From the NCBI GenBank assembly GCA_018895015.1, contig JAHIOX010000015.1, positions 11,533 through 75,532 of the forward strand: DNA of 64,000 bases, in the 5' to 3' direction. Positions 8,133 to 51,193 of the stretch are shown here, one piece after another. How positions within the stretch are numbered: the first letter of the stretch is position 1; each line of letters opens with the position of its first letter. The DNA is from Patescibacteria group bacterium (lineage in GTDB: Bacteria > Patescibacteriota > Minisyncoccia > UBA9983). Below the pieces are notes generated by a model. The model was not told the origin of the DNA. It saw only the letters and a program-made list of their open reading frames with translations, and made no database searches. A program made the position numbers and the translations under genes.

Positions 8133-9086
8133 TTATTTTCTTTTCCCACTTTTTCTTTCTTGTAATTTATAAATCGTAACCAAAAGCGGCGAAGCTAAAA
8201 AGATTGAAGAATACGTTCCGGCGATTATACCGACTATAAGCGCCAATGAAAAATATTTTGTCGTTTCTCCGCCGAAAAAGAACAGCGCGAGAAGCACCAA
8301 AAACACCGTTAAAGAAGTGTTAATTGAACGGGCAATTGTTTGGTTAACGCTTAACCCAACCGTATTTTCAAAATTCTCTCCAATGCCCTTCCGTAAATTC
8401 TCGCGAACACGGTCAAAAACAACAATGGTATCATGGACGGAAAAACCAAGAATAGTAAGGAGCGCCGTAATAAACAAAATGTCTATTTCCGCGCCAAAAT
8501 ATTTTCCAAGAATCGCGAAAATTCCGGTTGGAATCGCCACATCATGAATAAGAGCGACAACCGCCATCAGCCCGTATTTAAAAGACGAGACTCCCCTGCC
8601 GGTTTTAGACAGCCCGGCTGAAACCTTGCGGAACGCGAAAGCGATATAAAAAATAATCATTGCCAAAACCAGCGCCATGGCAACCCACGATTTTTGCGCG
8701 AGTTCTTTTCCGATAACAGGCCCGATTGAATCAAAACGCGTTTCGGTTATTTCACTTGGAAATCCAGTTTCCAAGTGCTTGGAAACTGGATTTCCAAGTG
8801 CTTGCAATAATAATTGGTGCTCTTCTTCAGATAAATCTTTTGAGCGGATAAGCAATCCATTGTCGCCGGTTGGCTGCAAGGAGATATTGCCCAAATCCAA
8901 CGGAGAAATTTTTTCCTTAATAACGAAATTTTCCGGCCTGTCATTTAAATATTCAATCTCAAGAAGCGAGCCGCCGGTAAAATCTATTCCCAAATTCAAA
9001 CCAAAAAAGAAAATTGAAAATATGCTCGCTACTACGAGCAGTCCTGAAATCGCGTACCAAATTTTTCGATGCTTTATGATATTCAT
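8133..9086 (-). CDS. secF: Protein translocase subunit SecF
   Basis: SecF membrane topology and conserved C-terminal TM region. Start set at ATG 9084-9086, 4 nt after the secD stop. Contains the type A palindrome at 8752-8799, encoding LGNPVSKHLETGFPS. Confidence 0.85.
   Translation of the reverse strand: MNIIKHRKIWYAISGLLVVASIFSIFFFGLNLGIDFTGGSLLEIEYLNDRPENFVIKEKISPLDLGNISLQPTGDNGLLIRSKDLSEEEHQLLLQALGNPVSKHLETGFPSEITETRFDSIGPVIGKELAQKSWVAMALVLAMIIFYIAFAFRKVSAGLSKTGRGVSSFKYGLMAVVALIHDVAIPTGIFAILGKYFGAEIDILFITALLTILGFSVHDTIVVFDRVRENLRKGIGENFENTVGLSVNQTIARSINTSLTVFLVLLALFFFGGETTKYFSLALIVGIIAGTYSSIFLASPLLVTIYKLQERKSGKRK
8752..8799. repeat. In-frame intragenic palindromic element, type A (48 bp, 23-bp perfect arms)
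   Basis: cacttggaaatccagtttccaag tg cttggaaactggatttccaagtg. The left arm is the exact reverse complement of the right arm. Confidence 0.8.
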
Positions 9087-9090
9087 AATT

Positions 9091-10419
9091 CTAACTTTGC
9101 GAAATCTTATGCGAATTATGCGAACCAAACAAAAATTGCGTTAATTTGCTTTCCTCTTTCGCTCCGATTGCCAGCAAAAATGTCCTGCTTATAATAATTG
9201 CCGAGAACATGCTGACTAGCACGCCGATGCCAAGAGTAAGAGCAAAGCCTTTTACCATGCTCGTTCCCATCCAAAAAAGTATGAAAGCGGTAATCAAACT
9301 TGAAACATTTGAATCGCGGATAGACAGCCAAGCGCGAGCAAATCCCTCTGTAATGGCCGTGTTTAATTGCTTGCCGGCCCGCCTTTCCTCTTTCATTCTT
9401 TCAAAAATCAAAATATTCGCGTCAACCGCCATGCCAATGGACAAAATGAAACCGGCAATGCCCGCGGCTGTCAGCGTTACCGGAATAATTTTAAAAATCG
9501 CCAAAACAATAATAATATAAATGGCGAGAGCGAAAACAGAAATAAGCCCCGGCAAACGATACCATAATACAAGAAAAAGGGACACTAAAATAATCCCGTA
9601 AATTCCGGCAGTAATTCCTTTCATTAAAACTTTTTCTCCCAAAGTCGGGCCAACGCTTTGCTGGGAAATAAGCTCAATCGGAACCGGAAGCGCCCCTGAG
9701 TTCAAGCGCTGGACCAGCAGTTTTGCTTCTGTCGGAGTAAATTGGCCGGTTATTTGAGCGCGGCCGTTTGGAATTTCTTCCCTAACCACAGGCGCGCTAA
9801 TCGGAGCGCCGTCTAAAAATATAGCGAGCTGCTTGCCGACATTTTCCTTTGTGAGCTTGGCAAAAATTTCCGCGCCCTCGTCATTAAATTGGATTGAAAT
9901 TTCCGGCTCGTACGTAGTCGGGCTAAATTCAAGCGTTGCTTTTTCAAGATAGCGGCCGGTAAGCCGGGACGGCAAAAAAGCGTCCGCTGCGTTCACGCCT
10001 TCTTCCATATTCGGCGCCTCTATCCTAAATTCCAAAAATGGAGTTTCTCCGAGCATTTTTATCGCTTGATTCACGTCTGTCACGCCAGGCAATTCAACAA
10101 TAAGGCGCTGTTCTTTATTTTCAGATGCCTTTAAAATGCCTTTTTGCTCCACCTGGACAAGCGGTTCGGCAACGCCAAAAAGATTGACCCTTCTTTCAAT
10201 AACATCCCTAAGCCCGTCCATTGCATCCTGAATTTCAGACGGGCTAATTTGAGAAACATCAGCCCGATAAACCAGATGCGCTCCTCCGCGCAAATCCAAA
10301 CCAAGCTTAAACGGCATGGAAAAAAATAGGTTTGGCGAAAATATATGCGCTACGTCAAAATAGCCGATGGCAGCGCCGGCTAAAATAATCAAAACCGCTA
10401 TAAACCTGTATTTCGGCAT
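9091..10419 (-). CDS. secD: Protein translocase subunit SecD
   Basis: SecD periplasmic domain and C-terminal 6-TM region. Adjacent to and co-oriented with secF. Confidence 0.85.
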   Translation of the reverse strand: MPKYRFIAVLIILAGAAIGYFDVAHIFSPNLFFSMPFKLGLDLRGGAHLVYRADVSQISPSEIQDAMDGLRDVIERRVNLFGVAEPLVQVEQKGILKASENKEQRLIVELPGVTDVNQAIKMLGETPFLEFRIEAPNMEEGVNAADAFLPSRLTGRYLEKATLEFSPTTYEPEISIQFNDEGAEIFAKLTKENVGKQLAIFLDGAPISAPVVREEIPNGRAQITGQFTPTEAKLLVQRLNSGALPVPIELISQQSVGPTLGEKVLMKGITAGIYGIILVSLFLVLWYRLPGLISVFALAIYIIIVLAIFKIIPVTLTAAGIAGFILSIGMAVDANILIFERMKEERRAGKQLNTAITEGFARAWLSIRDSNVSSLITAFILFWMGTSMVKGFALTLGIGVLVSMFSAIIISRTFLLAIGAKEESKLTQFLFGSHNSHKISQS

Positions 10420-10451
10420 AATTTTTAATATTATAGTTTTTTAAAAAAAAT

Positions 10452-11375: not shown

Positions 11376-11416
11376 TTAATAAAATTTTAACATTTTTGCG
11401 TTAAAAATAAAAAGCC

Positions 11417-11439
11417 GGGTCAGGAGCAACTCCTGGCCC
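11417..11439 (-). terminator. Rho-independent terminator-like hairpin downstream of the lipoprotein gene
   Basis: gggtcaggag caa ctcctggccc (10-bp stem with one G-U pair), followed on the minus strand by a T-run. Confidence 0.5.
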
Positions 11440-11448
11440 AGCAAACAC

Positions 11449-13353: not shown

Positions 13354-14625
13354 TTATATTTCTAATTTATTATTTTTGCAAATTTTAGCGTATTCATATG
13401 CGCTAGGACGAATTTTGCGTTCTTGAGTTTTAAAATCCACCTCAACCAAACCGAATCTCGGCCAAAATCCGCGAATTTCAACAAACTCAAAATTATCTAT
13501 TAATGACCAATGGAAATATCCTTTTACGTCTACCCCGTCTTTTATTGCCTTATGCACCCAGTACAAATGCTCTTTTATAAATTTTTCTCTTTTTTCGTCT
13601 TTGGCATCAGCCAATCCATTTTCAGTGATATAAATCGGCTTGTTATATTTTTGCAAATTCTTAAGAAAATGGTAAATTCCTTCTGGATATATTTTCCAGC
13701 CTAAATCGGTTCGTTCTCCGCCAGTATCAAGATTATTTTCAATTATTCCTAAAAAATTTCCCCCTAACCTAAATCCCATTTCTATTGAACGATAATATTG
13801 AAACGCGACATAATCAATATTTTTTTTAATTTTTTTAAAAAAACCGCCTTCTAAATAACTGATAATTTTTGCCAAAATTTTATTGTATATTTTATTTTTG
13901 TAAGGAATAAAAAAGTTTGCCGAATTTCCAACACCAACCAACGCAGAATCGGAAATTGAATGTATAGCGTTATAAGCCGATTTCTGCGCTTTGATAAGAT
14001 TCGCCCTTGTTCTCGCCGCCTTAAAAATACTTTTGTTTCCCGGAGGCTGAGTTCCCTTGATTGTTCCTAAAGAAGTATAAACCGCCGGCTCGTTCAGCGT
14101 TATCCAAAATTTTACATCGCTGAAAGATGCTACGATTTTGCTTACATAACGTTCAAAATATTTTGGAGCATTTTTGTTTAACCAGCCGCCTTTCTCCGCA
14201 AGCCATATCGGCAAAGTCCAATGCCAAAGCGTTACAAACGGCTCAAGTCCGCGCGCGCGAAGAGCTTTTATAACTTTTCTATAATGCTCAATTTCTTTTT
14301 CGTCAAACTTCCCTTCTTCCGGCTCAATGCGACTCCACTCTATGGAAAAACGGTGCGCGTTGTGGCCTAGCGATTTCGCAATGCCAAAATCTTCTTCATA
14401 ACGATTGTAATGGTCGCATGCCCGACCGGAAATATAATTTTCCGGCTCAAACATTTCCGGGAATTTCTTTTTTTGCCAATCCTGCCAATGAGTTTGCGCT
14501 TCTTTTGCCAGCCGAGCGCTGTTCGCATGCTCCCATTCGCTCCAATCATTATAATTATTCCCTTCAACTTGATGCGCCGAAGTCGCCGCTCCCCAATAAA
14601 ATCCTTTTGGAAATTCGTATTTCAT
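13354..14625 (-). CDS. Glycoside hydrolase family 1 beta-glucosidase
   Basis: GH1 N-terminal signature FYWGAATSAHQVEG, acid/base TLNEP, nucleophile YITENG. Confidence 0.85.
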   Translation of the reverse strand: MKYEFPKGFYWGAATSAHQVEGNNYNDWSEWEHANSARLAKEAQTHWQDWQKKKFPEMFEPENYISGRACDHYNRYEEDFGIAKSLGHNAHRFSIEWSRIEPEEGKFDEKEIEHYRKVIKALRARGLEPFVTLWHWTLPIWLAEKGGWLNKNAPKYFERYVSKIVASFSDVKFWITLNEPAVYTSLGTIKGTQPPGNKSIFKAARTRANLIKAQKSAYNAIHSISDSALVGVGNSANFFIPYKNKIYNKILAKIISYLEGGFFKKIKKNIDYVAFQYYRSIEMGFRLGGNFLGIIENNLDTGGERTDLGWKIYPEGIYHFLKNLQKYNKPIYITENGLADAKDEKREKFIKEHLYWVHKAIKDGVDVKGYFHWSLIDNFEFVEIRGFWPRFGLVEVDFKTQERKIRPSAYEYAKICKNNKLEI

Positions 14626-15470
14626 TTATTTAATAAAAGTAAATTTTTAAAAATCATTGCCACTGTTATAGGCCCGATTCCGCCCGGCACCGGCGTAAAA
14701 ATAGATGCTTTTTCAGCGACCTCCGGAGCAACATCGCCGACTATACTTGTACTTGGAAATCCAGTTTCCAAATGGAAACTGGATTTCCAGTAACTTGTTC
14801 CCGCGTCTATTATTATAACTCCCTCCTTCACTATTTCTGGCGTTATCAAATCCGGTTTTCCAACTCCTGAAATTATTATGTCCGCCTCTTTTGTAAATTT
14901 TGTGATATCCGAGGTAGCGCTGTTTAAGACTGAAACCGCAGCGCCTCGGTTGATAAGCCAAATCGCAACGGGCTTGCCAACCAAAATTCCACGTCCGATT
15001 ACAACCGCATGCTTCCCATTCAAATCAACTCCGACTTTATCCAAAATAATTTTTGTGGCGCCAACAACCGGCGGAAGAATTTTACTCCTATCCGTAGAAA
15101 AATCTCCAAACGCGCGCGAGGACAAAACATCAACGTCTTTTTTAAGAACAATCCCATTCAAAACATATTGGGTATTTATTTGCTTTGGAAGCGGAAGCTG
15201 AAGAATTACGCCTGAATTTTCCTTAATATGGCTAATTCCAGCCATATTTTGGCGAAGTTTATTCGTTGAAATATCAGCCGGCAGATTATAAACTTTAGTT
15301 TTTACGCCGATTTCCTCGGCAAATTTCACTTTTCTTTCAATAAATTTTTTTGAAACAGGGTCGTCACCCGCCTGAACAATTGCAAGTTTAAGTTTTTTGT
15401 CAGTTTTTGAAATCTCCTGTTTTAGAAACTCCTTAATCTCCTCCGCAATTTTTCTGCCGTCAATAATCAT
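14622..15470 (-). CDS. folD: Bifunctional methylenetetrahydrofolate dehydrogenase/cyclohydrolase
   Basis: FolD motifs (...GDDPVS..., VVIGRGILVGKP, TPVPGGIGPITVAM). Contains the type A palindrome at 14752-14790, encoding WKSSFHLETGFPSTS. Confidence 0.85.
   Translation of the reverse strand: MIIDGRKIAEEIKEFLKQEISKTDKKLKLAIVQAGDDPVSKKFIERKVKFAEEIGVKTKVYNLPADISTNKLRQNMAGISHIKENSGVILQLPLPKQINTQYVLNGIVLKKDVDVLSSRAFGDFSTDRSKILPPVVGATKIILDKVGVDLNGKHAVVIGRGILVGKPVAIWLINRGAAVSVLNSATSDITKFTKEADIIISGVGKPDLITPEIVKEGVIIIDAGTSYWKSSFHLETGFPSTSIVGDVAPEVAEKASIFTPVPGGIGPITVAMIFKNLLLLNK
14752..14790. repeat. In-frame intragenic palindromic element, type A (short form)
   Basis: cttggaaatccagtttcc aaat ggaaactggatttccag. 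Perfect 15-bp arms ggaaatccagtttcc / ggaaactggatttcc. Confidence 0.8.
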
Positions 15471-15484: not shown

Positions 15485-16696
15485 TTATTTAAGTGTTTTA
15501 TCAATCTTCTCCGCGATCTTTATCATATCTTTTTCTTTCATTCCCAATGTAGTTACTGCCGGCGTTCCAATGCGAATGCCTGACGGGCCTGCCGGCCTGC
15601 GCGTATCAAACGGAATCATATTTTTATTCACGATAATTCCCGCTCTTTCCAGTTTATCGCTCGCCTCTTTTCCGCTTATTCCGCGCGACCATGTATCAAC
15701 CAAAAATAAATGCGTGTCAGTTCCGCCGGAAACAATTCTCCACCCGCGTTTTTTTAATTCGTTTGCCAAAACTTGCGCGTTTTTCACTACTTGGTTAGCG
15801 TATATTTTAAAACTTGGCGACATCGCTTCTTTAAGGCAAACGGCAATAGCGGCGATTTGATTTATGTGCGGCCCGCCCTGCAATCCCGGAAAAACCGCCC
15901 GGTCAATTAGGACATCCAGTGTCCACTTGGACACTGGATGTCCAAGTGGTTTAATTTTGCGAGAAAAAATCATTGCTCCACGAGGACCGCGAAGAATTTT
16001 GTGCGTGGTGGTCATTACGACATCCGCGTACGGGAATGGAGATGGATGCTCTCCGCCGGCCACAAGGCCGGCAATATGCGACATATCAACCATCAAATAA
16101 GCGCCGGCCGCGTCGGCTATTTTTCTAAATTTTCTAAAATCAATTTTACGAGAATAGGCGGTAGCGCCGACAACAACCATCGCAGGTTTTTCTTTTTTAG
16201 CTATTTTAAAAATTTCTTCATAATCAAGCCTTTCGGTTTTTTTACTGACTCCGTAAGGAACTTGTTCCCAAAATTTTCCTGTCATGGAAACTTTCTGGCC
16301 ATGAGTCAAATGCCCGCCCATCTCAAGCGACATACCCATAATCTTACTGCCGATTGGAACAAGCGCCGAATAAATCGCCAGATTTGCCGGCGAGCCGGAA
16401 TACGGCTGGACATTAACATGCCACCTCGACTTCGCTCTGTGCAAGCATTTTTTATTACAAAGCTTAAACAGTTTCAACGCGCGATTTTTGCAAAGCTCTT
16501 CTATTTCATCAACTATTTCATTTCCGCCATAATATCTTTTGCCAGGATATCCCTCCGCGTATTTATTAGTAAAAACCGAGCCGAGCGCGCGCAAAACATC
16601 CCCGGAAACATAATTCTCCGAAGCAATCAAATTAACGGCCTTTTTCTGCCGCTTTTCTTCAAGCTTAATTAATCGCTCTATTTCAGAATCTGTCAT
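15485..16696 (-). CDS. glyA: Serine hydroxymethyltransferase
   Basis: SHMT motifs (HLTHGQ, VVMTTTHKILRGPRGAMIF, pyridoxal-phosphate lysine region). Contains the type B palindrome, encoding KPLGHPVSKWTLDV. Confidence 0.9.
   Translation of the reverse strand: MTDSEIERLIKLEEKRQKKAVNLIASENYVSGDVLRALGSVFTNKYAEGYPGKRYYGGNEIVDEIEELCKNRALKLFKLCNKKCLHRAKSRWHVNVQPYSGSPANLAIYSALVPIGSKIMGMSLEMGGHLTHGQKVSMTGKFWEQVPYGVSKKTERLDYEEIFKIAKKEKPAMVVVGATAYSRKIDFRKFRKIADAAGAYLMVDMSHIAGLVAGGEHPSPFPYADVVMTTTHKILRGPRGAMIFSRKIKPLGHPVSKWTLDVLIDRAVFPGLQGGPHINQIAAIAVCLKEAMSPSFKIYANQVVKNAQVLANELKKRGWRIVSGGTDTHLFLVDTWSRGISGKEASDKLERAGIIVNKNMIPFDTRRPAGPSGIRIGTPAVTTLGMKEKDMIKIAEKIDKTLK
15908..15949. repeat. In-frame intragenic palindromic element, type B
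   Basis: ggacatccagtgtcca ct tggacactggatgtcc aagtgg. Perfect 16-bp arms. Core differs from type A by paired a>c and t>g changes. Confidence 0.8.
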
Positions 16697-18721: not shown

Positions 18722-18830
18722 AAGACTGGCGGCTGGCTACTTTCCCCTTGCGAGTATCATCGCTACTACCACCTTTCACTTCCGTGTTCGGAATGGGAAC
18801 GGGTGGGACAATGGCGTCTAGCCACCAGAC
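18722..18830 (-). rRNA. rrf: 5S ribosomal RNA
   Basis: Reverse complement GTCTGGTGGCTAGACGCCATTGTCCCACCCGTTCCCATTCCGAACACGGAAGTGAAAGGTGGTAGTAGCGATGATACTCGCAAGGGGAAAGTAGCCAGCCGCCAGTC. Conserved CCGAACACGGAAG loop. Confidence 0.8.
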
Positions 18831-18869
18831 TAAAAAATTCAATTGTTATTTTTTACGTCATTTTCAGAA

Positions 18870-21958
<3,089 letters not shown>

Positions 21959-22191
21959 TTTCCTATTAGGAAATTAATAATTCTGAAATATAAACGTAAA
22001 AATACTTTAATTACCCATTATGTTTTCAAAGTTCTGGCATTTCTGTCTTTAAAAAATAAAAAATCCGCTTTTAGAAGCGGCTTAATCAAGCAAAAGTAGA
22101 ACAAATGCTACCCTTTTTTACGCTTCCAAAATATTCCTATTTTCTTTCTTATCATATCTTAATTTCATTATATATTCGCAAAACAAAAAGT

Positions 22192-23793: not shown

Positions 23794-24189
23794 TTATTTC
23801 AACTCAACAGCCGCTCCGGCTGCCTCTAATTTTGCTTTTAATTCCTCGGCTGTTTTTTTATCCGCCCCTTCTTTTACAACGATAGGAGCTCCATCAGCCA
23901 TATCTTTAGCTTCCTTAAGTCCAAGGCTCAATGCGTCTCTTAAAACTTTGATTACTTGAATTTTTTGCTCGCCAGAACTCTTAAGATGGACATTAAAAGA
24001 TTCTTTTTCTTCTCCGACGCTCGCCTCTAGCGCAGTCGGAGCTCCGACTGCGAATGTCGGAGCCGCTGCCGAAACTCCAAATTTCTCCTCCAATAATTTT
24101 ACAAGCTCCGACAAATCAAGAACGCTCATTGATTCTATTTTTTCAACAATATCCTTGAATTTTGCCGGGGTTTTTATTTCTTCTGCCAT
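23794..24189 (-). CDS. rplL: 50S ribosomal protein L7/L12
   Basis: Canonical L7/L12 N-terminal dimerisation and C-terminal domain (SVLDLSELVKLLEEKFGVSAAAP...). Confidence 0.9.
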   Translation of the reverse strand: MAEEIKTPAKFKDIVEKIESMSVLDLSELVKLLEEKFGVSAAAPTFAVGAPTALEASVGEEKESFNVHLKSSGEQKIQVIKVLRDALSLGLKEAKDMADGAPIVVKEGADKKTAEELKAKLEAAGAAVELK

Positions 24190-24195: not shown

Positions 24196-24735
24196 TTAAT
24201 TTTTTCCGCCCGAGGCGGATCCGCCTTTGGCGGAAATTTTACCCAATACGCTGACTAAATTTCTCATAATGCCGTTTAAGGCCACGACCACGCCCTTTCT
24301 CGGCGAATTAATAATATTAACTAACTGCCCCAATAAAACCTCCCTTGATGGAATATTTGCCAACTTAATTACTGTTTGAGAATCTATGTACTCATTCTCA
24401 AACACACCTCCTAAAAATTTTATTGTTTTATTCTTTTTCGCGAATTCATTTAGAATTTTTGCCGCCGCAATCGGATCATTCTGCGCGAAAGCCAAAGCTG
24501 CCTCGCCTTCTAATTCCGGAATTTGACCTGAAAAACCAAGCTTTTCCAAGGCTTTTTTAATAAGTGTTTTCTTGGAGACTAAAAAACGCGCTCCAGAAGC
24601 CCTTAGAGATTTCCTTAATTCACTCAAAGAAGCCACGCTCAGGCCATGAAAATTCACAAAAATTGAAATCTTGGATTCTCCAAATCCTTTTTCTAAATCT
24701 TTTAATATTTCTTGTTTTTTTTCTTTTGTAATCAT
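24196..24735 (-). CDS. rplJ: 50S ribosomal protein L10
   Basis: L10 family, immediately upstream of rplL. About 160-nt leader upstream (24736-24896). Confidence 0.85.
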   Translation of the reverse strand: MITKEKKQEILKDLEKGFGESKISIFVNFHGLSVASLSELRKSLRASGARFLVSKKTLIKKALEKLGFSGQIPELEGEAALAFAQNDPIAAAKILNEFAKKNKTIKFLGGVFENEYIDSQTVIKLANIPSREVLLGQLVNIINSPRKGVVVALNGIMRNLVSVLGKISAKGGSASGGKN

Positions 24736-36825: not shown

Positions 36826-36886
36826 AAAACCATACTAACAAATAAATATAGTTTAGGCAATCCCATGTGACTGGACAAGGCAAAAA

Positions 36887-36901: not shown

Positions 36902-38050
36902 ATGAAAATCAAGCAATCCATATTTAAAGAATACGATATCAGGGGGAGGTATCCGAGCGAAATAAACAAAGACGCCGCTTATAAAATAGGCAGGGCTTTG
37001 GCCATTTTTTTAAAACTTAAACACAAAAATAAGATTATTGTTGCCAGAGATGGCCGCCCGAGCTCTCCGGCGCTCTCTAAAGCTTTTGTTTCCGGAATAA
37101 TTGATTCCGGCGCCAGCGCGATAGACATAGGCATAGTTACAACCCCAACGCTTTATTTCGCTGTCCCATTTTTAAAAGCCGACGGAGGCGCGATGGTCAC
37201 CGCTTCGCACAACCCGATAAGCGATAACGGGATAAAGCTTGTCAAAAAAGAGTCGGAGCCGCTCAACGAAAAATCTTTATTAAAAATTTATGAAATCGCG
37301 AACAATCTTCCGGATAGACTCCCGGGCAAACTGGGAGAATATAAAAAAATGGATGTTGAAAAAGATTATCTTGAAGCAATGCTCAGCGATTACAAAATTA
37401 ACAAGCCTGGCTTTTCTTATTCTTTTGATTACGACGGCGACCGGTTAATGCTCAAAAATAAAAATGGTAAAGAAATAAGAGGCGACATAGCCGGAGGCAT
37501 TATGGCCGACACAGTCGCGAACGCCGGTGATACCATTGTTTACGACGTAAGATGTTCGCACGGCGTCGTAAAGTATTTTGAAAACAAAGGAATCATTGCC
37601 GCTCCAAGCCGAACTGGGCACTCCAATATCAAAAAATTAATGAGAGAAAAAAACGCAATCTTTGGCATGGAAATAACCGGCCATTACTATTTTAAAAAAT
37701 TCCATTATTGCGAATCGCCATTGTACGGAATAAAAAAAATAGCTGAAAAAATAAGCGAGAGCGGAAAAAACATTGATGAATTGTCAAAGCCCTTTATGAA
37801 ATACTGCCATTCAGGAATAATAAACACCTCTGCCAAGGGCGGGCGAATCGAAAAAATTATAGAAAAATTGAAAGAAGAATATAAAAATGGAGCCCAGAAT
37901 GAACTGGACGGCTTAACAGTAGAATTTTCAAACTGGTGGTTCAACATCCAGCCGTCTCAAACAGAACCAATTATACGGCTAGTGATAGAAACAAAAACAC
38001 CGCAACTTTTAGCGGAAAAGAAAAAAGAATTGTTGAAACTTATATCTTAA
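36902..38050 (+). CDS. Phosphoglucomutase/phosphomannomutase family protein (short form)
   Basis: Active-site TASHNP, metal-binding DGDGDR-like FDYDGDR, GEYK... motifs. Confidence 0.8.
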   Translation: MKIKQSIFKEYDIRGRYPSEINKDAAYKIGRALAIFLKLKHKNKIIVARDGRPSSPALSKAFVSGIIDSGASAIDIGIVTTPTLYFAVPFLKADGGAMVTASHNPISDNGIKLVKKESEPLNEKSLLKIYEIANNLPDRLPGKLGEYKKMDVEKDYLEAMLSDYKINKPGFSYSFDYDGDRLMLKNKNGKEIRGDIAGGIMADTVANAGDTIVYDVRCSHGVVKYFENKGIIAAPSRTGHSNIKKLMREKNAIFGMEITGHYYFKKFHYCESPLYGIKKIAEKISESGKNIDELSKPFMKYCHSGIINTSAKGGRIEKIIEKLKEEYKNGAQNELDGLTVEFSNWWFNIQPSQTEPIIRLVIETKTPQLLAEKKKELLKLIS

Positions 38051-38829
38051 ATTCTAAATAAGTTTAATGCGTTGGCGGTTGTGACTTTTGCCGCTTCTTC
38101 TTCTGAAATGCCTTTTATCTCCGCGATTTTTTTGGCAACCTCAATAACATACGACGGCTCGTTGCGCTGGCCCCTGTAAGTAATCGGCGCAACGAACGGC
38201 GCGTCGGTTTCAATCATAATTTTATCCAACGGCGCGTTTCTGATTATTTCATCATAGTCTCGAGCAAAAGTGATAACGCCAGTGAAAGAAATTAAAAATC
38301 CCAGTTCAAAATATTTTTCCGCCTGCTCCAGACTGCCGGAGAAAAAATGAATATCGCCTCGCAGTTTTTGGCATTTATGCAAATTAAGAATTTCCAAAAC
38401 ATCTTTGTGCGCATCGCGGCAATGAATCATTAATGGCTTATCCAATTCTATCGCCAATTCAATCTGTTGTTTTAAAATATCTTTTTGTCTTGCTAAATAA
38501 TCTTTTTCTCTGCGAAAAATATCAATTCCGCATTCCCCTATTGCCATCACTTTTGGATGTTGAGTCAATTTGCGCAACTTGGAAATCCAGTTTCCACTTG
38601 GAAACTGGATTTCCAAGTTCTCTGCATCCGTAGGATGCAGACCCACTGAAGCAAACATCCCTTCGTATTTTCCCGCGATTTCCACGGCCTTTTTAGAGCT
38701 TTCAAAATCCACACCAACAATAATAGTCCAAATTCCATGAGCCAACATCCGTTTGATGACTTCTTCCCTGTCTTTATCAAAATCCGCAAAATTCAAATGC
38801 GAATGAATGTCAAAATATTTTGGAATCAT
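38047..38829 (-). CDS. tatD: TatD-family metal-dependent DNase/hydrolase
   Basis: TatD motifs (FDIHSHL, AIGECGID, HCRDA, ETDAPF). Contains the type A palindrome, encoding EIQFPSGNWISK. Confidence 0.85.
   Translation of the reverse strand: MIPKYFDIHSHLNFADFDKDREEVIKRMLAHGIWTIIVGVDFESSKKAVEIAGKYEGMFASVGLHPTDAENLEIQFPSGNWISKLRKLTQHPKVMAIGECGIDIFRREKDYLARQKDILKQQIELAIELDKPLMIHCRDAHKDVLEILNLHKCQKLRGDIHFFSGSLEQAEKYFELGFLISFTGVITFARDYDEIIRNAPLDKIMIETDAPFVAPITYRGQRNEPSYVIEVAKKIAEIKGISEEEAAKVTTANALNLFRI
38578..38617. repeat. In-frame intragenic palindromic element, type A
   Basis: cttggaaatccagtttcca ct tggaaactggatttccaag. Perfect 19-bp arms. Confidence 0.8.
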
Positions 38830-38832: not shown

Positions 38833-40305
38833 CTATTTTCTCAAAAACAACGGCTCCGGCATTTTATTCGCTTCAATGGCGCGAAGAATTTTTTCTGAAG
38901 TTTCCGGCAAAAATGGTCCCAGCATAATCGCGACTTCGAAAAGCCCGCTGACTAATTCCAGTAAAATTTTTTTGGCCGCCTTCTCGTCTATTTTTATCAG
39001 CTTGAACGGCTCTGTTTCCTGAATTTTTTTATCCAAATCGGAAATTTTTTGCCAAATAAAATCCATTGCTTTATTCAATTCAAAATCATCCATAAACTTT
39101 TTGTAGTCTTCCGGCACTTGGACATCCAGTGTCCAAGTGGACACTGGATGTCCGCTATCAAAATATTGTTCGCTCATCTTCATAATTCTTGCCGTTAAAT
39201 TTCCCAATCCGTTGGCAAGATTGGCGTTATACGCTTCTTTGAATTTTTCTTCCGTTATGTCGCCGTCTTCAAATATTGTTATCTCTCTCAACAAATAATA
39301 ACGGACCGCGTCTGCCCCGTATCCTTCAATCAAATCAAACGGGTTTATAACATTGCCCAAAGTTTTAGACATTTTTCTGCCGCCGGAAAGCGCAAATCCG
39401 TGCACTAAAATTTCTTTAGGCAAAGGCAAGCCGGCGGACAAAAGCATCGCCGGCCATACAATCGCGTGGAAACGTGAAATGTCTTTGCCTATGACATGCA
39501 AATCCGCCGGCCAAAATTTCGCAAAATTGATATCGTCAGTGCTTCCATATCCAAGAGCGGAAATATAATTCGCGAGCGCGTCGCACCAAACATACATAAT
39601 CTGGCTTGAATCATTTGGAACGGGCACGCCCCAATCCAACTTTTCAACCGGCCTTGAAAAACTTATATCTTCCAACCCGTCGCCAAGCATCACCAGCGCC
39701 TCGTTTTTTCTTGAAACAGGAATAATTTTAAATTCGTCTGATTTTATTTTATTTTTTATTTCTTCCGCGTATTTTGAAAGCCTGAAAAAATAATTTTTTT
39801 CTTCAATCAATTCCGGCTCCTTGTCGTGAATCGGGCATTTCCCGTCAACTAATTCTTTTTCAGTTATATACGCCTCGCATCCGATGCAATAATATCCTTT
39901 GTATTTTGCCTTATAAATATCGCCGGAATCATCAAGTTTTTTCCAGAGCGACTGCACGCCAGGCCAATGCCGTTTTTTATCAGTAGTCCGTATAAAATCG
40001 TCAATTGAAATGCTCAATGCCACTGCAAGCTTTTTGTACATTTCAACATTTTCGTCAACAAAATCTTTTACATTCTTGCCGCGCGCTTCGGCCATTTTCA
40101 ATATTTTAATCCCGTGCTCATCCGCACCTGATAAAAAATAAACTTCTTTTCCCAAAAAACGCTGGTATCGGGCAATAACATCCGCCTGCGTTTTCTCCAG
40201 CGCGTGGCCAAAATGAGGAACGTCACTGGCATAATCAATGGCAGTTGTAATATAAAATTTTTCCATTTTAACCGGCAGCCCTATGTTTTTTATGGTCAAT
40301 ATCAT
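38833..40305 (-). CDS. metG: Methionyl-tRNA synthetase (short, single-chain form)
   Basis: Class I HIGH (PHFGHALE) and KMSKS (KMSKT) motifs, zinc knuckle CIGCE...CPIH. Contains the type B palindrome, encoding GHPVSTWTLDVQV. Confidence 0.9.
   Translation of the reverse strand: MILTIKNIGLPVKMEKFYITTAIDYASDVPHFGHALEKTQADVIARYQRFLGKEVYFLSGADEHGIKILKMAEARGKNVKDFVDENVEMYKKLAVALSISIDDFIRTTDKKRHWPGVQSLWKKLDDSGDIYKAKYKGYYCIGCEAYITEKELVDGKCPIHDKEPELIEEKNYFFRLSKYAEEIKNKIKSDEFKIIPVSRKNEALVMLGDGLEDISFSRPVEKLDWGVPVPNDSSQIMYVWCDALANYISALGYGSTDDINFAKFWPADLHVIGKDISRFHAIVWPAMLLSAGLPLPKEILVHGFALSGGRKMSKTLGNVINPFDLIEGYGADAVRYYLLREITIFEDGDITEEKFKEAYNANLANGLGNLTARIMKMSEQYFDSGHPVSTWTLDVQVPEDYKKFMDDFELNKAMDFIWQKISDLDKKIQETEPFKLIKIDEKAAKKILLELVSGLFEVAIMLGPFLPETSEKILRAIEANKMPEPLFLRK
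39115..39153. repeat. In-frame intragenic palindromic element, type B
   Basis: cacttggacatccagtgtcc aagt ggacactggatgtccgc. Perfect 15-bp arms ggacatccagtgtcc / ggacactggatgtcc. Confidence 0.8.
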
Positions 40306-46802: not shown

Positions 46803-46825
46803 ATTTTTAATTAAAATTTTATTTG

Positions 46826-47083: not shown

Positions 47084-47086
47084 AAA

Positions 47087-47968: not shown

Positions 47969-47970
47969 AA

Positions 47971-48294
47971 TTATTCCGCTTGTTCTAAAAATATTTTTTT
48001 CTCAAATCCGCCGCGCTTTTGCTTTCTTTCTTCTTTCATTTTTAAAATTTCGTCTTTGCTTAAACCGAAAGCTTTTTCTATGGCTTCAATCACCTCAAAG
48101 ATATCGCCGATTTCTTTCATCAATTCATGGCTATTTTCTGCCAAAACAGCTTCTTGGGATTCTTCTAAGAGCTTATTTTTCAGTTCTTTTTTATATTCTT
48201 CATCATCAAGTATACGAGTTATAGGCTTTTCACCATCATTTTCAATAATTTCGGGAATTTTATCTCTCACTAATTTATTATAAATTTTCACCAT
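47971..48294 (-). CDS. MazG-like nucleotide pyrophosphohydrolase domain protein
   Basis: All-alpha MazG/HisE-like pattern (KLVRDKIPEII...EE..E..L). Confidence 0.45.
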   Translation of the reverse strand: MVKIYNKLVRDKIPEIIENDGEKPITRILDDEEYKKELKNKLLEESQEAVLAENSHELMKEIGDIFEVIEAIEKAFGLSKDEILKMKEERKQKRGGFEKKIFLEQAE

Positions 48295-48298
48295 AAAT

Positions 48299-51193
48299 TT
48301 ATTGGATAATTTTAATGATAAATTTTAATTCTTCTATTTTTATTTCTTCGCCATCGTTTTCTGAAAATTCTATTAAGGCAGTATTTGTGCCTTTTTTGAT
48401 TTCACTTTCAAATTTTTTGATTAATTTTTCGCCGTTATAATCTGTCTCAACAACTAAATCTATTTCTTGTCCAGGCATTAACCCTGCCTTTTTGCGCAAA
48501 TCCTGAATATTACGGACTAATTCCCGCATCATGCCTTCGTCTTTAAGTTCAGAAGTAACAATAATATCCAACTTTACGGACGGATCATCTTGAGCCATAG
48601 TAGCATCAAGCATAACCTCCTTTACATTCACTTCGGCTGCGAGAATATCTTTTACTTCACTCCAATACTGCACTTTTTCTCCATTATGCTTAATAGATAA
48701 TCTTTGTAACGGTTGACGTACTTTTATATTATGTTTAGCTCGTTCCATAAGCGCTATAGACGCGAATGACCTGACAAAACTCATAGCAGTTAGTAAATCA
48801 ACATCTACCGAACCAGACTCGGGCCATTCTTCCAAATGTACTGATTCTTTCTCTCTACCCAATTCTTGATAAATTTCTTCTGCCGCAAAAGGCGCGAATG
48901 GCGCGAGCAATTTTGAAAATTCTACCAACACAAAACACGTTGTGCTGACTACGTTATTTTTATCTTCGCCTTCTTCTTTGAATCTGCTTCTCGAACGCCT
49001 GATATACCAAGTGGACAAATCATCAACAAAATCTCCGAGCGGCCGCGCAGCTTTATCTAGTTCGTAGTTTTCCATCGCTTCGGTAATTTCTTGCGTTAAT
49101 TGGTTCAACCGCGCCAAAATCCATTTGTCTAAAATATTTTTAACACTTGGAAATCCAGTTTCCAAGTGTGCGGAAACTGGATTTCCAAGTGTGTACATTT
49201 TATAAAACGCCAAAACATTTTTGAGTCGCATAATTATTTTTTTGTTGACTTCATCCACGCCTTTTTCCGAAAAATTCAAACTCTCGGCGCGCACGGCTGG
49301 CGAAGAAAGAAGGTAAAAACGCAGCGCGTCAGCGCCATATTTTTCAACAATATCCATCGGGTCTGGATAATTTTTAAGGCGCTTTGACATTTTTTGTCCA
49401 TCTTCAGCCAAAATAATTCCGTTGGCAACAACATTTTTATACGCTGGCTTATCAAAAAGAGCCGTGGAAAGAACAAGCAAAGTATAAAACCATCCTCTGG
49501 TCTGGTCCACGCCCTCGGCAATAAACTCCGCCGGAAATGTTTTTTCAAATTCCTCTTTATTTTCAAACGGATAATGCTTTTGAGCGTAAGGCATTGAACC
49601 GGATTCAAACCAGCAATCAAAAACCTCGGGCACGCGCTTCATTTTTTCACCACAATCACATTGAAATTCAATTTTATCAATATGCGGCCTATGCAAATCT
49701 ATTTTGCCAACTTCTTCTGCCGAACCAATGACTTTTATTTCTCCGCATTTTTCGCATCTCCAAACGGGCAAAGGCGCGCCCCAGTAGCGTGAGCGGGAAA
49801 TCGCCCAGTCGCGCGCGCCCTCAAGCCATTTTCCAAAACGGCCGTCGCGCAAATTCGCCGGAATCCAGTTTATTTTTTTGTTGTTTTCCAAAAGCTGGCC
49901 TTTTATTTTTTCAACATTCACGAACCACGAACTCGCCGCGTAATTCAAAAGCGGAGTTTCGCACCGCCAGCAAAAAGGATACGAGTGCGAAATTGATTCC
50001 TGATTAAAAACTTTATCGCCCAAAAATTCAATAATTTTTTCATCGGTCTCTCTTGGATTGCCCTTCGGCTTAACTTGCAAGCCGGCGAAGCCTTCAACTT
50101 CCGGCTTAAACTTCCCGTCCATTCCGACATGCTGAATAAATGGCAATTTTTCTTTTTTACCCAATTCCATATCGTTCTCACCGAACGCCGGCGCGATATG
50201 GACAATTCCCGTTCCATCTTCAGTATTCACAAAATCCGCAGAATAAATTCTCCAACCGTTATTACTATTTTCTAATTTTTTATCTTTAGAATAATAATTA
50301 AATAACGGCTTGTATTTTTTCCCGATCAAGTCTTTTCCTTTTAATTCTTGGATAATTTTATATTCTTTGTCTTTTAGAATGTCATCAATTCTATCTTTTG
50401 CCAAAATAAAATACTCATTATTTTTGAGATTTGATTTTTGAGATTTGATTTTGCAATAAATCACTTTGTGATTTATTGCCAACGCGACATTTCCGGGCAA
50501 TGTCCACGGAGTCGTGGTCCATGCTAAAACATAAGTATCCGGCTCGTCTTCCAATTCAAATTTAACAGTAACGGCAATATCTTTAATCTCTTTATAATTT
50601 TGCGTTACTTCAAAATTTGAAAGAGTGGTTTCGCATCGCGGGCAGACGTGCATTGATTTATGCCCTTCATAAATTAATCCTTTGTCATAAAGCGTCTTAA
50701 AAACCCGCCAGACCGATTCAGTGTAATTTCTGTCCATTGTCTTATAATCATTTTCCATATCCACCCATCTGCCGATACGCGGAATTATTTTTTTCCATTC
50801 GTCAGCGTATTCCAAAACGCTTTCCTCAGCCTTTTTATTAAATTTTTCAATGCCATATTCTTCAATGTCTTTTTTGCTTTTCAAACGCAAATCTTTTTCT
50901 ACGAGATTTTCAATCGGCAAACCATGACAATCCCAACCCCACCTGCGCGGAACATTTTTCCCTCTCATTGTCTGATAACGCGGAATCGCGTCTTTTATTA
51001 TGCTCGCCAAAATGTGGCCGTAGTGAGGAAGGCCTGTGGCAAACGGCGGCCCGTCATAAAAAGAAAAAACAGGCTTGTTTTTGCCCTGCTCAAGCGTCTT
51101 TTCAAAAATTTTATTCTCTTCCCAAAATTTAAGTATTTCTTCCTCTTTTTTAGCGATTTCAGATTTATTTGTTTTATTTTCTTTGTTTTTCAT
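48299..51193 (-). CDS. ileS: Isoleucyl-tRNA synthetase
   Basis: Class I HYGH (PHYGHIL) and KMSKR motifs, CP1 editing domain, C-terminal zinc motif CxxC. Contains the type A palindrome, encoding LGNPVSAHLETGFPS. Confidence 0.9.
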   Translation of the reverse strand: MKNKENKTNKSEIAKKEEEILKFWEENKIFEKTLEQGKNKPVFSFYDGPPFATGLPHYGHILASIIKDAIPRYQTMRGKNVPRRWGWDCHGLPIENLVEKDLRLKSKKDIEEYGIEKFNKKAEESVLEYADEWKKIIPRIGRWVDMENDYKTMDRNYTESVWRVFKTLYDKGLIYEGHKSMHVCPRCETTLSNFEVTQNYKEIKDIAVTVKFELEDEPDTYVLAWTTTPWTLPGNVALAINHKVIYCKIKSQKSNLKNNEYFILAKDRIDDILKDKEYKIIQELKGKDLIGKKYKPLFNYYSKDKKLENSNNGWRIYSADFVNTEDGTGIVHIAPAFGENDMELGKKEKLPFIQHVGMDGKFKPEVEGFAGLQVKPKGNPRETDEKIIEFLGDKVFNQESISHSYPFCWRCETPLLNYAASSWFVNVEKIKGQLLENNKKINWIPANLRDGRFGKWLEGARDWAISRSRYWGAPLPVWRCEKCGEIKVIGSAEEVGKIDLHRPHIDKIEFQCDCGEKMKRVPEVFDCWFESGSMPYAQKHYPFENKEEFEKTFPAEFIAEGVDQTRGWFYTLLVLSTALFDKPAYKNVVANGIILAEDGQKMSKRLKNYPDPMDIVEKYGADALRFYLLSSPAVRAESLNFSEKGVDEVNKKIIMRLKNVLAFYKMYTLGNPVSAHLETGFPSVKNILDKWILARLNQLTQEITEAMENYELDKAARPLGDFVDDLSTWYIRRSRSRFKEEGEDKNNVVSTTCFVLVEFSKLLAPFAPFAAEEIYQELGREKESVHLEEWPESGSVDVDLLTAMSFVRSFASIALMERAKHNIKVRQPLQRLSIKHNGEKVQYWSEVKDILAAEVNVKEVMLDATMAQDDPSVKLDIIVTSELKDEGMMRELVRNIQDLRKKAGLMPGQEIDLVVETDYNGEKLIKKFESEIKKGTNTALIEFSENDGEEIKIEELKFIIKIIQ
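49143..49192. repeat. In-frame intragenic palindromic element, type A (long form)
   Basis: acacttggaaatccagtttcc aagtgtgc ggaaactggatttccaagtgt. Perfect 21-bp arms. Confidence 0.8.

What the first reader, a model, noticed from the sequence alone, without database searches (positions are those of the whole stretch)
8752..49192. Family of 39-50 bp perfect palindromes inserted in-frame inside seven conserved housekeeping genes (RPE-like element, not previously familiar to me in this lineage)
Seen directly: near-identical palindromes built on the core ggaaatccagtttcc / ggaaactggatttcc (type A) or ggacatccagtgtcc / ggacactggatgtcc (type B), flanked by cacttgg / ccaagtg. They occur at 8752-8799 (secF), 14752-14790 (folD), 15908-15949 (glyA), 38578-38617 (tatD), 39115-39153 (metG) and 49143-49192 (ileS), with a diverged relative at 96-143 (glycosyltransferase). 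All seven copies lie inside coding sequences of conserved enzymes, none is intergenic, and every copy keeps the host reading frame open. Each adds a 13-16 residue peptide: LGNPVS(K/A)HLETGFPS in one phase, EIQFPSGNWISK in another, LGHPVSKWTLDV for type B. The peptides sit at positions corresponding to surface loops of the host proteins (for example between VIDAGTSY and IVGDV in FolD, and inside the FYKMYT...VKNIL region of IleRS). This is the behaviour described for Rickettsia palindromic elements (established knowledge). Seven copies of an RPE-like, coding-region-restricted element in 64 kb would imply hundreds genome-wide, with peptide insertions in many essential proteins. The mechanism (a mobile hairpin element versus hairpin-templated repair) and any function are unknown.
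Basis: partly seen in the sequence, partly recalled or inferred. Interest (0 to 1): 0.85.

Follow-up and report, generated by a model that had tools for sequence, protein, structure and literature searches.

The report
REP hairpin repeats inside CPR genes
The palindromes are real. They are paired copies of a short hairpin repeat (REP/REPIN type) whose matching tyrosine transposase gene lies about 5.5 kb beyond the window in the same Patescibacteria genome, and they sit in frame in fast-changing loops of essential enzymes.

Summary
Observation confirmed. Six perfect or near-perfect 39-50 nt palindromes lie in frame in secF, folD, glyA, tatD, metG and ileS.

Interpretation partly supported. Each palindrome is a doublet of one ~21-25 nt hairpin, (C)ACTTGG-N3-N5-N3-CCAAGT(G), the architecture of a REPIN.

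The decisive result comes from contig JAHIML010000011.1 (GCA_018896515.1). It is 100% identical to window 59469-64000 and runs past the window's end. About 5.5 kb beyond that end it carries a Y1 (HUH) transposase. The best structural match of this protein is the E. coli REP-associated tyrosine transposase (4ER8). The exact type-A hairpin flanks the gene on both sides and occurs twice in frame inside it. Five other metagenome loci, found only through the hairpin sequence, show the same pairing.

The family is not restricted to coding DNA. In related contigs 28 of 48 hairpins lie outside ORFs that cover 83% of the DNA.

The copies are not simple insertions. They occupy hypervariable loops where strains 97-99% identical carry other repeats or the native sequence.

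Verdict: a known kind of element (REP/REPIN-RAYT, with RPE-like intragenic behaviour). I found no description of it for Patescibacteria. Two features look unusual: cognate REPs embedded in the transposase ORF, and strain-level turnover in essential proteins.

The parts
8753..8800 (.). Type-A REP doublet (REPIN-like) in secF (ORF 8133-9128, minus strand). It is CACTTGGAAAtccagTTTCCAAGTG followed by CTTGGAAActggaTTTCCAAGTG, and encodes LGNPVSKHLETGFPS.
   Evidence: (I3). The first arm is identical to the hairpin that flanks the transposase gene (L148 5266-5290).
14751..14791 (.). Type-A REP doublet in folD (ORF 14622-15470, minus strand), encoding WKSSFHLETGFPS. The perfect palindrome spans 14754-14789.
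   Evidence: (I10). The orthologous copy in L143 is less perfectly palindromic.
15910..15949 (.). Type-B REP doublet (inner stem ACA/TGT) in glyA (ORF 15485-16696, minus strand), encoding LGHPVSKWTLDV. It is the exact reverse complement of the metG copy.
   Evidence: (I16). Absent from L143, which is 93% identical over this region. Present in L144 with both loops changed in concert. In the AF2 model it lies in a coil between strand 241-246 and helix 260-267.
38576..38619 (.). Type-A REP doublet in tatD (ORF 38047-38829, minus strand), encoding NLEIQFPSGNWISK.
   Evidence: (I5). Absent from strain L145 (97-99% identical), which has the native NGNEIFDIEKY. Identical in L146. L147 has a different hairpin of the same superfamily at this site.
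38621..38641 (.). A perfect 9-bp hairpin, TCTGCATCCgtaGGATGCAGA, abutting the tatD element and coding the conserved LHPTDAE.
   Evidence: Four synonymous differences from L145 all improve the pairing. Its relation to the REP family is not established.
39115..39153 (.). Type-B REP doublet in metG (ORF 38833-40305, minus strand; the true start is probably the Met of MEKFYITT), encoding GHPVSTWTLDVQV.
   Evidence: (I17). At this site L145 has a direct doublet of CTTAGAAGCcttGCTTCTAAG, L146 has TTGGCGCC twice, and L147 has (AAAATC)n.
49143..49192 (.). Type-A REP doublet with an 8-nt spacer in ileS (ORF 48299-51193, minus strand), encoding LGNPVSAHLETGFPS.
   Evidence: (I6). L147 has unrelated direct repeats at this site.
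96..143 (.). A palindromic doublet of another sequence (AAGGTCGGACCTT ... AAGGTCCGACCTT) in the C-terminal part of a glycosyltransferase ORF (13-312, plus strand). Possibly a decayed or overwritten relative.
   Evidence: 135-149, 3 mismatches; Glycos_transf_1; -13.9 kcal/mol. Family membership is not shown.

Best explanation
The palindromes are REPIN-type doublets of a REP hairpin family of a Paceibacteria-class (Patescibacteria/CPR) bacterium.

The unit is a ~21-25 nt hairpin. Its outer stem, (C)ACTTGG/CCAAGT(G), is conserved. Its 3-bp inner stem covaries (AAA/TTT = type A, ACA/TGT = type B). Its loop is 5 nt.

A RAYT-like Y1 (HUH) tyrosine transposase in the same genome is flanked by this hairpin. 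By analogy with E. coli TnpA-REP and IS608 TnpA, I infer that this enzyme recognises the folded hairpin on single-stranded DNA, then cuts and rejoins it. That would disperse and homogenise copies.

The genome is 87% coding. Copies that land in genes survive only where three conditions hold: the length change is a multiple of three, no stop codon is created (the element is stop-free in all six frames), and the protein tolerates the change. The tolerant places are surface loops that are already variable. Homologous recombination between strains then spreads or removes occupied alleles.

Shown: the repeat family, the doublet architecture, the link to the transposase in the same genome and in five other loci, the RAYT-like fold, strain-level presence/absence and replacement, and concerted change of copies.

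Inferred: that this transposase moves the hairpins, the single-strand mechanism, that the peptides are translated, and that the copies are neutral passengers.
For: (1) Same genome. L148 (GCA_018896515.1) and L149 are 100% identical to window 59469-64000 over 4532 nt. In L148, 5469 nt past the window's end, ORF 5304-5945 (213 aa, P0243) lies between map and ruvX. CACTTGGAAAtccagTTTCCAAGTG sits 14 nt before its ATG. ACTTGGAAAtccagTTTCCAAGT sits 12 nt after its stop. Two further copies lie in frame inside the ORF.

(2) Other loci. Loci retrieved only through the hairpin 21-mer carry homologous transposase genes or remnants with flanking hairpins: L127, L131, L141, L118 and L142. L126/L034 carries a distant Y1 gene. 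L150 shows the same arrangement with its own loop variant.

(3) Identity of the protein. Pfam Y1_Tnp scores 34.4 and 32 bits against a cut-off of 23. The only NCBIfam hit is REP_Tyr_transpos. JGI names homologues 'REP element-mobilizing transposase RayT'. The AF2 model has pLDDT 83. Its best PDB match is 4ER8, a RAYT bound to a REP hairpin (E = 3.9e-6), followed by the IS608 and ISDra2 TnpA structures.

(4) Doublets of inverted hairpins that fold into one long hairpin, which is the REPIN definition (PMC3116915).

(5) Concerted evolution.
- The L144 glyA copy has its loops changed from TCCAG/CTGGA to TTTAA/TTAAA and remains a perfect palindrome.
- In 71 RAYT homologues the two internal hairpin peptides share 2.04 of 3 variable residues, against 0.72 in shuffles.
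- 17 of 19 centre-only differences are those produced by reverse-complementing the loop codon.

(6) Turnover. L145 is 97-99% identical over 4.3 kb, and its only large differences (indels of 3 nt or more, and local identity falling to 0.64-0.87) are at the metG and tatD element sites.

(7) Precedent. Intragenic REPs, mostly dimers encoding 20-30 aa and including copies in tRNA synthetases, are documented in other phyla (PMC3733652).
Against: - No target-site duplication or clean empty site was seen. Every comparison shows replacement of loop codons, which a simple cut-and-paste insertion does not predict.
- The hairpins lack the GTAG or CGTC tag of the two large REP superfamilies.
- The transposase scores below the NCBIfam RAYT cut-off (31.6 against 80 bits). 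A sequence profile finds no PDB relative.
- All six window copies are intragenic, whereas REPINs are defined as extragenic.
- Type-B copies have no matching transposase in the DNA I could read from this genome. L127's homologue is flanked by type B, but it comes from another organism.
- RAYT-driven REP transposition has not been shown in vivo, to my knowledge.
- There is no evidence on transcription or translation here.
Confidence: 0.75

Rival explanations
1. Palindromes are generated and homogenised without a transposase. Replication template switching at quasi-palindromes, or hairpin-templated repair, perfects and extends local inverted repeats. Ectopic template switching or gene conversion between hairpins that share stems then copies sequences between loci.
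For: - Both halves of the glyA element changed in concert in L144.
- The window's folD copy is a better palindrome than its orthologue in L143.
- Four synonymous differences create a perfect hairpin at 38621-38641.
- Elements replace loop codons rather than inserting with duplications.
- The same loops hold tandem or direct repeats in other strains.
Against: - It does not explain why the same hairpin flanks a Y1 transposase gene in six or more independent loci.
- It does not explain why the outer stem ACTTGG/CCAAGT is conserved across divergent lineages while the inner stems covary.
- It may still act alongside the transposase.
Confidence: 0.15
2. An RPE-like selfish element specialised for coding regions. 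It inserts preferentially into genes and adds a defined peptide module.
For: - Six of six window copies are in frame in conserved genes.
- The elements are stop-free in all six frames.
- Coding singlets are always read in one phase, LGxxxSK.
Against: - 28 of 48 family hairpins in related loci lie outside ORFs of 100 aa or more.
- Non-coding clusters exist.
- The window is 87% coding, so six of six is expected by chance.
- Doublets are read in three different phases, giving unrelated peptides.
Confidence: 0.05
3. The hairpins are kept because they function as structured RNA or DNA signals, for example terminators, mRNA stabilisers, or binding sites for the Y1 protein acting as a regulator. The coding copies would then be exapted regulatory sites.
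For: - Some intergenic copies sit directly after stop codons, and one is followed by a T run (L125, L150).
- The transposase family keeps two internal copies at conserved positions across more than 100 homologues. This suggests selection, possibly autoregulation.
Against: - Coding copies come and go between strains that are 97-99% identical.
- Stems are perfect Watson-Crick palindromes with no G-U pairs, and they occur in both orientations, which fits DNA-level symmetry better than an RNA function.
- No expression data are available.
Confidence: 0.05

Closest known systems
REP/REPIN elements with their REP-associated tyrosine transposase, RAYT (Nunvar 2010; Bertels & Rainey 2011, PMC3116915; Messing 2012, PMC3479197, PDB 4ER8; Bertels 2017, PMC5581495)
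   Same: - A short palindromic unit is repeated around the genome.
- Inverted doublets fold into a longer hairpin.
- The transposase is a Y1 HUH protein whose gene is flanked by its own repeats, and its fold is closest to 4ER8.
- The gene keeps a conserved chromosomal position (map-RAYT-ruvX in L148, L149, L131, L141 and L118), as expected for a vertically inherited gene.
- Repeat sequence and transposase lineage co-vary.
   Different: - There is no GTAG or CGTC tag.
- The doublets are much shorter (39-50 nt) and the two units overlap or abut.
- All window copies are intragenic and in frame.
- Two cognate hairpins are embedded in frame in the transposase ORF at conserved positions.
- The protein is too divergent to reach the NCBIfam RAYT cut-off.
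- The lineage is Patescibacteria; I found no paper describing the system there.
Intragenic REPs and Rickettsia palindromic elements, RPE (Ogata 2000; Di Nocera 2013, PMC3733652)
   Same: - Palindromic repeats lie in frame in ORFs of functional, conserved proteins, including tRNA synthetases.
- Many are dimers.
- Insertion sites appear compatible with protein folding.
   Different: - RPE-1 is about 100-150 bp and specific to Rickettsia; here the elements are 39-50 nt and share no sequence with it.
- Here the transposase partner is identified.
- Here the occupied sites are hypervariable loops with strain-level replacement.
IS200/IS605 family (IS608 and ISDra2 TnpA)
   Same: - The catalytic domain is a Y1 HUH domain (Pfam PF01797).
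- Subterminal hairpins flank the gene.
- The presumed substrate is single-stranded DNA.
   Different: - The hairpins are dispersed on their own in many copies, without the gene.
- No tnpB is present.
- The gene sits in a conserved housekeeping neighbourhood.
Optional G+C-rich palindromic clusters in yeast mitochondrial var1, and coding palindromes in Nematomorpha mitochondria (PMC6649704)
   Same: Short palindromes are tolerated inside translated genes. The yeast case shows presence/absence polymorphism spread by gene conversion; that point rests on my own knowledge, not a paper read here.
   Different: These are organellar systems with no associated Y1 transposase. In Nematomorpha both arms encode conserved protein sequence, rather than loop filler.

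Membership tests
REP/REPIN-RAYT system | A short (about 20-40 nt) palindromic unit present in many copies in one genome | tested here: met
   There are 12 hairpin units in six doublets in the window. Four more lie in the 11.4 kb beyond it. The window holds 59 perfect hairpins with stems of 8 bp or more, against 8.7 in shuffles.
REP/REPIN-RAYT system | Units arranged as inverted doublets that form a longer hairpin (REPIN) | tested here: met
   All six window copies are doublets of this kind. Predicted single-strand folds are -17 to -24 kcal/mol.
REP/REPIN-RAYT system | A Y1 (HUH) tyrosine transposase gene flanked by the same repeat, in the same genome | tested here: met
   In L148 the gene at 5304-5945 is flanked by the hairpin at 5266-5290 and 5957-5979. 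The contig is 100% identical to the window over 4532 nt. The same arrangement is seen in L127, L131, L141, L118 and L150.
REP/REPIN-RAYT system | The transposase belongs to the RAYT clade rather than to IS200 | tested here: inconclusive
   The best structural match is 4ER8 (E = 3.9e-6, TM 0.65 on the target), ahead of IS608 and ISDra2. The only NCBIfam hit is REP_Tyr_transpos, but at 31.6 bits against a cut-off of 80. A profile search finds no PDB sequence. No phylogeny was made.
REP/REPIN-RAYT system | Single-copy, vertically inherited transposase gene | tested here: inconclusive
   The map-RAYT-ruvX synteny is conserved in L148, L149, L131, L141 and L118.
REP/REPIN-RAYT system | Extragenic location | tested here: not met
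   Six of six window copies are inside ORFs. In related loci 28 of 48 are outside ORFs, so the wider family does lean towards extragenic DNA.
REP/REPIN-RAYT system | A conserved GTAG or CGTC tetranucleotide at one end (the Di Nocera superfamilies) | tested here: not met
   The flanks of the 16 copies read show no conserved GTAG/CTAC or CGTC/GACG.
REP/REPIN-RAYT system | The transposase binds and cleaves its REP hairpin, and copies move | not testable with these tools
   This needs biochemistry or mutation-accumulation sequencing.
Rickettsia palindromic elements (RPE) | Palindromic repeat inserted in frame in ORFs of conserved proteins | tested here: met
Rickettsia palindromic elements (RPE) | Size about 100-150 bp (RPE-1), sequence families of Rickettsia | tested here: not met
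   The elements are 39-50 nt. The host is a Patescibacteria/Paceibacteria-class bacterium (source names).
MITE | Terminal inverted repeats plus a target-site duplication, 70-300 bp | tested here: not met
   No duplication is seen at any of the sites compared; loop codons are replaced. The elements are also too short.
DNA uptake sequences | A short motif strongly over-represented genome-wide, beyond any repeat element | tested here: not met
   CACTTGG occurs only inside the elements, and no 6- to 8-mer stands out.

The most novel reading that the evidence does not exclude
Patescibacterial RAYT-type transposases keep two copies of their own cognate REP hairpin in frame inside their coding sequence, at conserved positions. 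The copies are either identical or loop-inverted, and they evolve in concert with the flanking copies. The gene would then act as the master template or autoregulatory sensor for the genome's REPIN population. That population continually overwrites variable surface loops of essential proteins (aminoacyl-tRNA synthetases, SHMT, FolD, SecF), so that strains of one species differ in the protein sequence of housekeeping enzymes. This would be a previously undescribed source of proteome microdiversity in the Candidate Phyla Radiation.
Probability: 0.3. Interest if true: 0.7.

Novelty: new member of a known kind. Interest (0 to 1): 0.5.

Why it matters
REP/REPIN-RAYT systems have been studied almost only in Proteobacteria, and as extragenic DNA. 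Here one operates in a CPR bacterium whose genome has almost no intergenic space, so the repeats end up inside essential genes.

This gives a concrete, testable explanation for many of the lineage-specific loop insertions seen in CPR housekeeping proteins. It also shows that such loops can differ between strains that are 97-99% identical.

It supplies a matched enzyme-substrate pair for biochemistry: a 213-aa Y1 protein and a 25-nt hairpin.

Two practical consequences follow. These elements will confuse orthologue alignments and phylogenies of marker proteins. They probably also break metagenome assemblies, since most contigs carrying the transposase are only 1-3 kb long.

Tried and rejected
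- Genome collection scan with a 16-nt single-arm pattern. One hit (L034) turned out to be a true relative by luck.
- Viral contigs: no match.
- DNA uptake sequence idea: rejected, because no motif is over-represented outside the elements.
- Transposase in the window itself: none found. Two Pfam calls covered 34 of the 69 ORFs; the other 35 were judged housekeeping by eye only. A tblastn with the RAYT proteins found nothing in the window. Only a DUF559 endonuclease-like gene, a ParE toxin, a NYN-domain protein and RecO turned up.
- TIGR-Tas array idea for the non-coding hairpin cluster in L034/L126: not pursued. The spacing is irregular (36-219 nt) and the variable parts are only 3+5+3 nt.
- Sequence searches of the transposase against PDB: single sequence found only spurious hits, and the profile found nothing. 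The fold search was needed.
- 'Recombination tract' as proof of homing. Identity drops around the glyA and tatD elements, but these genomes are mosaic everywhere and the metG replacement has clean flanks. Recombination therefore explains spread, not origin.
- Literature: four targeted searches found no paper on REP, RAYT or in-frame palindromes in Patescibacteria. The 'RAYT' hits were unrelated words.

Full report
**1. Observation**

- secF: 8753-8800
- folD: 14751-14791
- glyA: 15910-15949
- tatD: 38576-38619
- metG: 39115-39153
- ileS: 49143-49192

The 15-nt core with up to three mismatches occurs 19 times, against 2.8 expected. All six hosts are minus-strand ORFs that stay open. Pfam confirms them as SecF, FolD, SHMT, TatD, MetRS and IleRS.

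The window also holds unlinked 16S and 23S rRNA genes. Homologues of its proteins are named Patescibacteria, Paceibacterota or Parcubacteria by their sources. The organism is therefore a CPR bacterium.

The 'seventh copy' at 96-143 is a palindromic doublet of a different sequence. I do not count it as a member.

**2. Anatomy**

Each arm of each palindrome is itself a hairpin. Type A is CACTTGGAAA-tccag-TTTCCAAGTG. Type B is CACTTGGACA-tccag-TGTCCAAGTG. Each element is this unit followed by a copy with the loop reverse-complemented. The metG and glyA elements are exact reverse complements of each other.

The elements contain no stop codon in any of the six frames. Only 2-3.6% of random palindromes of this size share that property. 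As single-stranded DNA they fold at -17 to -24 kcal/mol.

The doublets are read in three different phases, giving unrelated peptides. What is conserved is therefore the DNA, not the peptide.

**3. The wider family**

A metagenome scan with a 21-nt hairpin pattern returned 25 loci. In these, the identical hairpin occurs both as singlets and as doublets.

The general form is CTTGG-N3-N5-N3-CCAAG, with compensatory changes in the inner stem: AAA/TTT, ACA/TGT, AAG/CTT, TGG/CCA, GTG/CAC.

Over 166 kb of related loci, 20 hairpins lie inside ORFs of 100 aa or more and 28 lie outside. Such ORFs cover 83% of that DNA. The family therefore leans towards non-coding DNA, with clusters such as L034/L126.

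In the window, ORFs cover 87% of the sequence. Six of six copies in genes is what chance gives (0.87^6 = 0.43). This refutes 'coding-region-restricted'.

**4. The sites are hypervariable loops, not conserved sequence**

*GlyA.* The closest orthologue (P0001/L143, 93% nucleotide identity over ftsW-glyA-folD) lacks the element and has the majority form CRKELADKID. Many Paceibacteria orthologues carry other insertions at this same loop, and at a second loop.

*MetRS.* Nearly every orthologue has a 12-15 residue segment of lineage-specific sequence at the site.
- L145: a direct doublet of CTTAGAAGCcttGCTTCTAAG
- L146: TTGGCGCC twice
- L147: (AAAATC)n

*L145.* This contig is 97-99% identical to the window over 4.3 kb. 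Its only large differences (indels of 3 nt or more, and local identity falling to 0.64-0.87) are at the metG and tatD element sites. In tatD it carries the native NGNEIFDIEKY.

*L146 and L147.* L146 shares the tatD element exactly. L147 has another hairpin of the superfamily there, CTTGGCGGTgaaACCGCCAAG. In ileS it has unrelated repeats.

*Length changes.* Net changes are +11, +6, -5 and +3 residues, so loop codons were replaced rather than simply added to.

*Structure.* PDB alignments place the FolD and SHMT elements at gap-prone positions. In an AF2 model of the window's SHMT (pLDDT 86), the element is a coil between strand 241-246 and helix 260-267.

*Recombination.* Identity drops over about 150 nt around the glyA and tatD elements. 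These genomes are mosaic throughout. Recombination explains how alleles spread; it does not explain their origin.

**5. The transposase**

When I translated ORFs next to the hairpins in the metagenome loci, three encoded the same protein family, with an HUH motif (NHYHF/L) and a GALWQGRFKS-like motif.

*Sequence and structure evidence.*
- Pfam gives Y1_Tnp above its cut-off.
- The only NCBIfam hit is REP-associated tyrosine transposase, below its cut-off.
- tblastn adds L118 (C-terminus plus hairpin), L142 (a decayed remnant plus hairpins) and a distant Y1 gene in L126/L034.
- In each locus the hairpin lies 12-20 nt outside the start and the stop.
- A database search finds 4158 homologues. Those in the top 120 that carry a source name are named Patescibacteria or its candidate phyla. 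NCBI calls them 'transposase' and JGI calls them 'REP element-mobilizing transposase RayT'.

*The same genome.* Fetching the contig of homologue P0243 gave L148 (GCA_018896515.1, JAHIML010000011.1) and L149. Both are 100% identical to window 59469-64000. They are the same strain and extend 11.4 kb beyond the window.

In L148 the transposase gene (5304-5945, between map and ruvX) begins 5469 nt past the window's end. The exact type-A hairpin is present four times, all in one orientation:
- at 5266-5290, before the gene
- at 5473-5497 and 5750-5772, inside the gene in frame, each read as LGNPVSK
- at 5957-5979, after the gene

*The fold.* An AF2 model has pLDDT 83 and pTM 0.82. Its low-confidence segments (pLDDT below 50) are residues 56-61 and 151-153, which overlap the two hairpin-encoded peptides, and the C-terminal residues 210-213. 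Its best match in the PDB is 4ER8, the E. coli RAYT bound to a REP hairpin. The IS608 and ISDra2 transposases follow.

**6. Concerted evolution**

In L144 the glyA element has loops TTTAA/TTAAA instead of TCCAG/CTGGA and is still a perfect palindrome. A MetRS from another genome (P0139) carries the matching peptide variant, GHLMSNWTLNV.

In the transposase family, the two internal hairpin peptides vary between homologues but agree within each protein. They share 2.04 of 3 variable residues, against 0.72 in shuffles; 0 of 1000 shuffles reach the observed value. Of 19 pairs that differ only at the centre, 17 are the amino-acid pairs produced by reverse-complementing the loop codon (P/G, R/S, F/E, K/L). 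Chance would give 14%.

The copies are thus defined at the DNA level and are kept alike within a genome. This is the pattern described for REPIN populations and their RAYTs.

**7. Mechanism**

Most likely (0.75): these are REPIN-like elements dispersed and homogenised by the RAYT-like Y1 transposase acting on folded single-stranded DNA. Selection keeps only in-frame, stop-free copies in tolerant loops. Recombination moves alleles between strains.

The link to the transposase, its fold, the element architecture, the turnover and the concerted change are shown. The catalytic role, the single-strand pathway and translation of the peptides are inferred.

The main rival (0.15) is transposase-independent template switching and gene conversion. 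It fits the replacement pattern and the palindrome-improving substitutions. It does not explain the transposase association or the conserved outer stem. The two processes may act together.

**8. Comparison and novelty**

The system meets the main REP/REPIN-RAYT criteria: repeated palindromic unit, inverted doublets, a cognate Y1 gene flanked by the repeat, and a RAYT-like fold. It fails two descriptive ones: extragenic location, and a GTAG or CGTC tag.

Intragenic REP dimers encoding 20-30 residues, including copies in tRNA synthetases, are already described in Opitutus, Rickettsia (RPE-4 and RPE-6) and other bacteria (PMC3733652). The behaviour is therefore known.

What appears new:
- the lineage; no paper was found in the held library
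- the very small size of the doublets
- the two cognate hairpins embedded in the transposase ORF
- replacement of loop alleles in essential enzymes between near-identical strains

I class it as a new member of a known kind, with interest 0.5.

Noticed in passing
window 51202-52404: A 1.2-kb cassette lies between ileS and argS. It holds a Cys-rich 152-aa ORF (51389-51847) and a DUF559 endonuclease-like ORF (51920-52321). A GC-rich repeat brackets it (51200-51284 and 52332-52408). The cassette is absent from relative L147, where argS and ileS are 10 nt apart.
   Followed up: partly
L148 5304-5945 (about 5.5-6.1 kb beyond window position 64000); alignment A1: The RAYT-like transposase family keeps two in-frame copies of its own REP hairpin at conserved positions, after ENSFRK and after NLNNKVH. 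Within a protein the two copies are identical in 31 of 71 cases, and in 17 of 71 they differ only by a central residue that fits a reverse-complemented loop codon. The four hairpins in and around the L148 gene are spaced 207, 277 and 207 nt apart.
   Followed up: partly
window 38621-38641: A perfect 9-bp hairpin directly abuts the tatD element and encodes the conserved LHPTDAE. Compared with strain L145 (97-99% identical), four synonymous differences all improve the pairing. This suggests hairpin-templated correction, or import of a foreign tract.
   Followed up: partly
window 16410-16465 (glyA residues about 77-90): SHMT has a second hypervariable loop. There is an 18-nt indel against L143, and many different short insertions occur in Paceibacteria orthologues (PLDSARGK, HRAKSR and others). 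pLDDT is below 50 at residues 85-88.
   Followed up: partly
window 461-485, 4070-4095, 24031-24063, 24203-24236: Other perfect hairpins lie inside ORFs: a PKD-domain protein, a DUF4015 protein, ribosomal protein L7/L12, and the C-terminus of L10. The one at 461-485 has a GGAAActcggTTTCC core like hairpin variants seen in L034 and L129, but a different outer stem.
   Followed up: no
window 5935-7454 and 18724-21968; L144 1159-1605: The 16S and 23S-5S rRNA genes are 11 kb apart with protein genes between them. Relative L144 has a LAGLIDADG ORF inside its 23S gene that the window lacks. The window's 23S match spans 3089 nt for a 2925-nt model.
   Followed up: no
L034 5190-5790 (= L126 6880-7480): A non-coding cluster holds seven hairpins of the CTTGG...CCAAG family with different inner stems and loops. 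They are interleaved with two other repeated hairpins (CATAGGAGTTTCCTATG and TCACTTGTCTCCCGTCGGGAGACAAGTGA). A distant Y1 transposase gene lies about 3 kb away.
   Followed up: partly
loci L120, L121, L124, L127, L131, L141, L147, L148, L150: Single hairpins inside long ORFs are always read in the same phase and orientation (CTT GGN ... AAG = LGxxxSK), although all six frames are open. Several intergenic copies overlap a stop codon directly after AAG.
   Followed up: partly
window 1518-3227 and 27761-30163: Two paralogous TraD/VirD4-like coupling-protein ATPases are present (TrwB_AAD_bind, T4SS-DNA_transf). The first ends in a treble-clef zinc finger.
   Followed up: no
L146 11256-11976 against window 36864-36886: A toxin-antitoxin insertion of about 700 nt (ParE family) is present in relative L146 and absent from the window. 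It is bordered by repeated CCAAGGGTGACCCTTGG hairpins.
   Followed up: no
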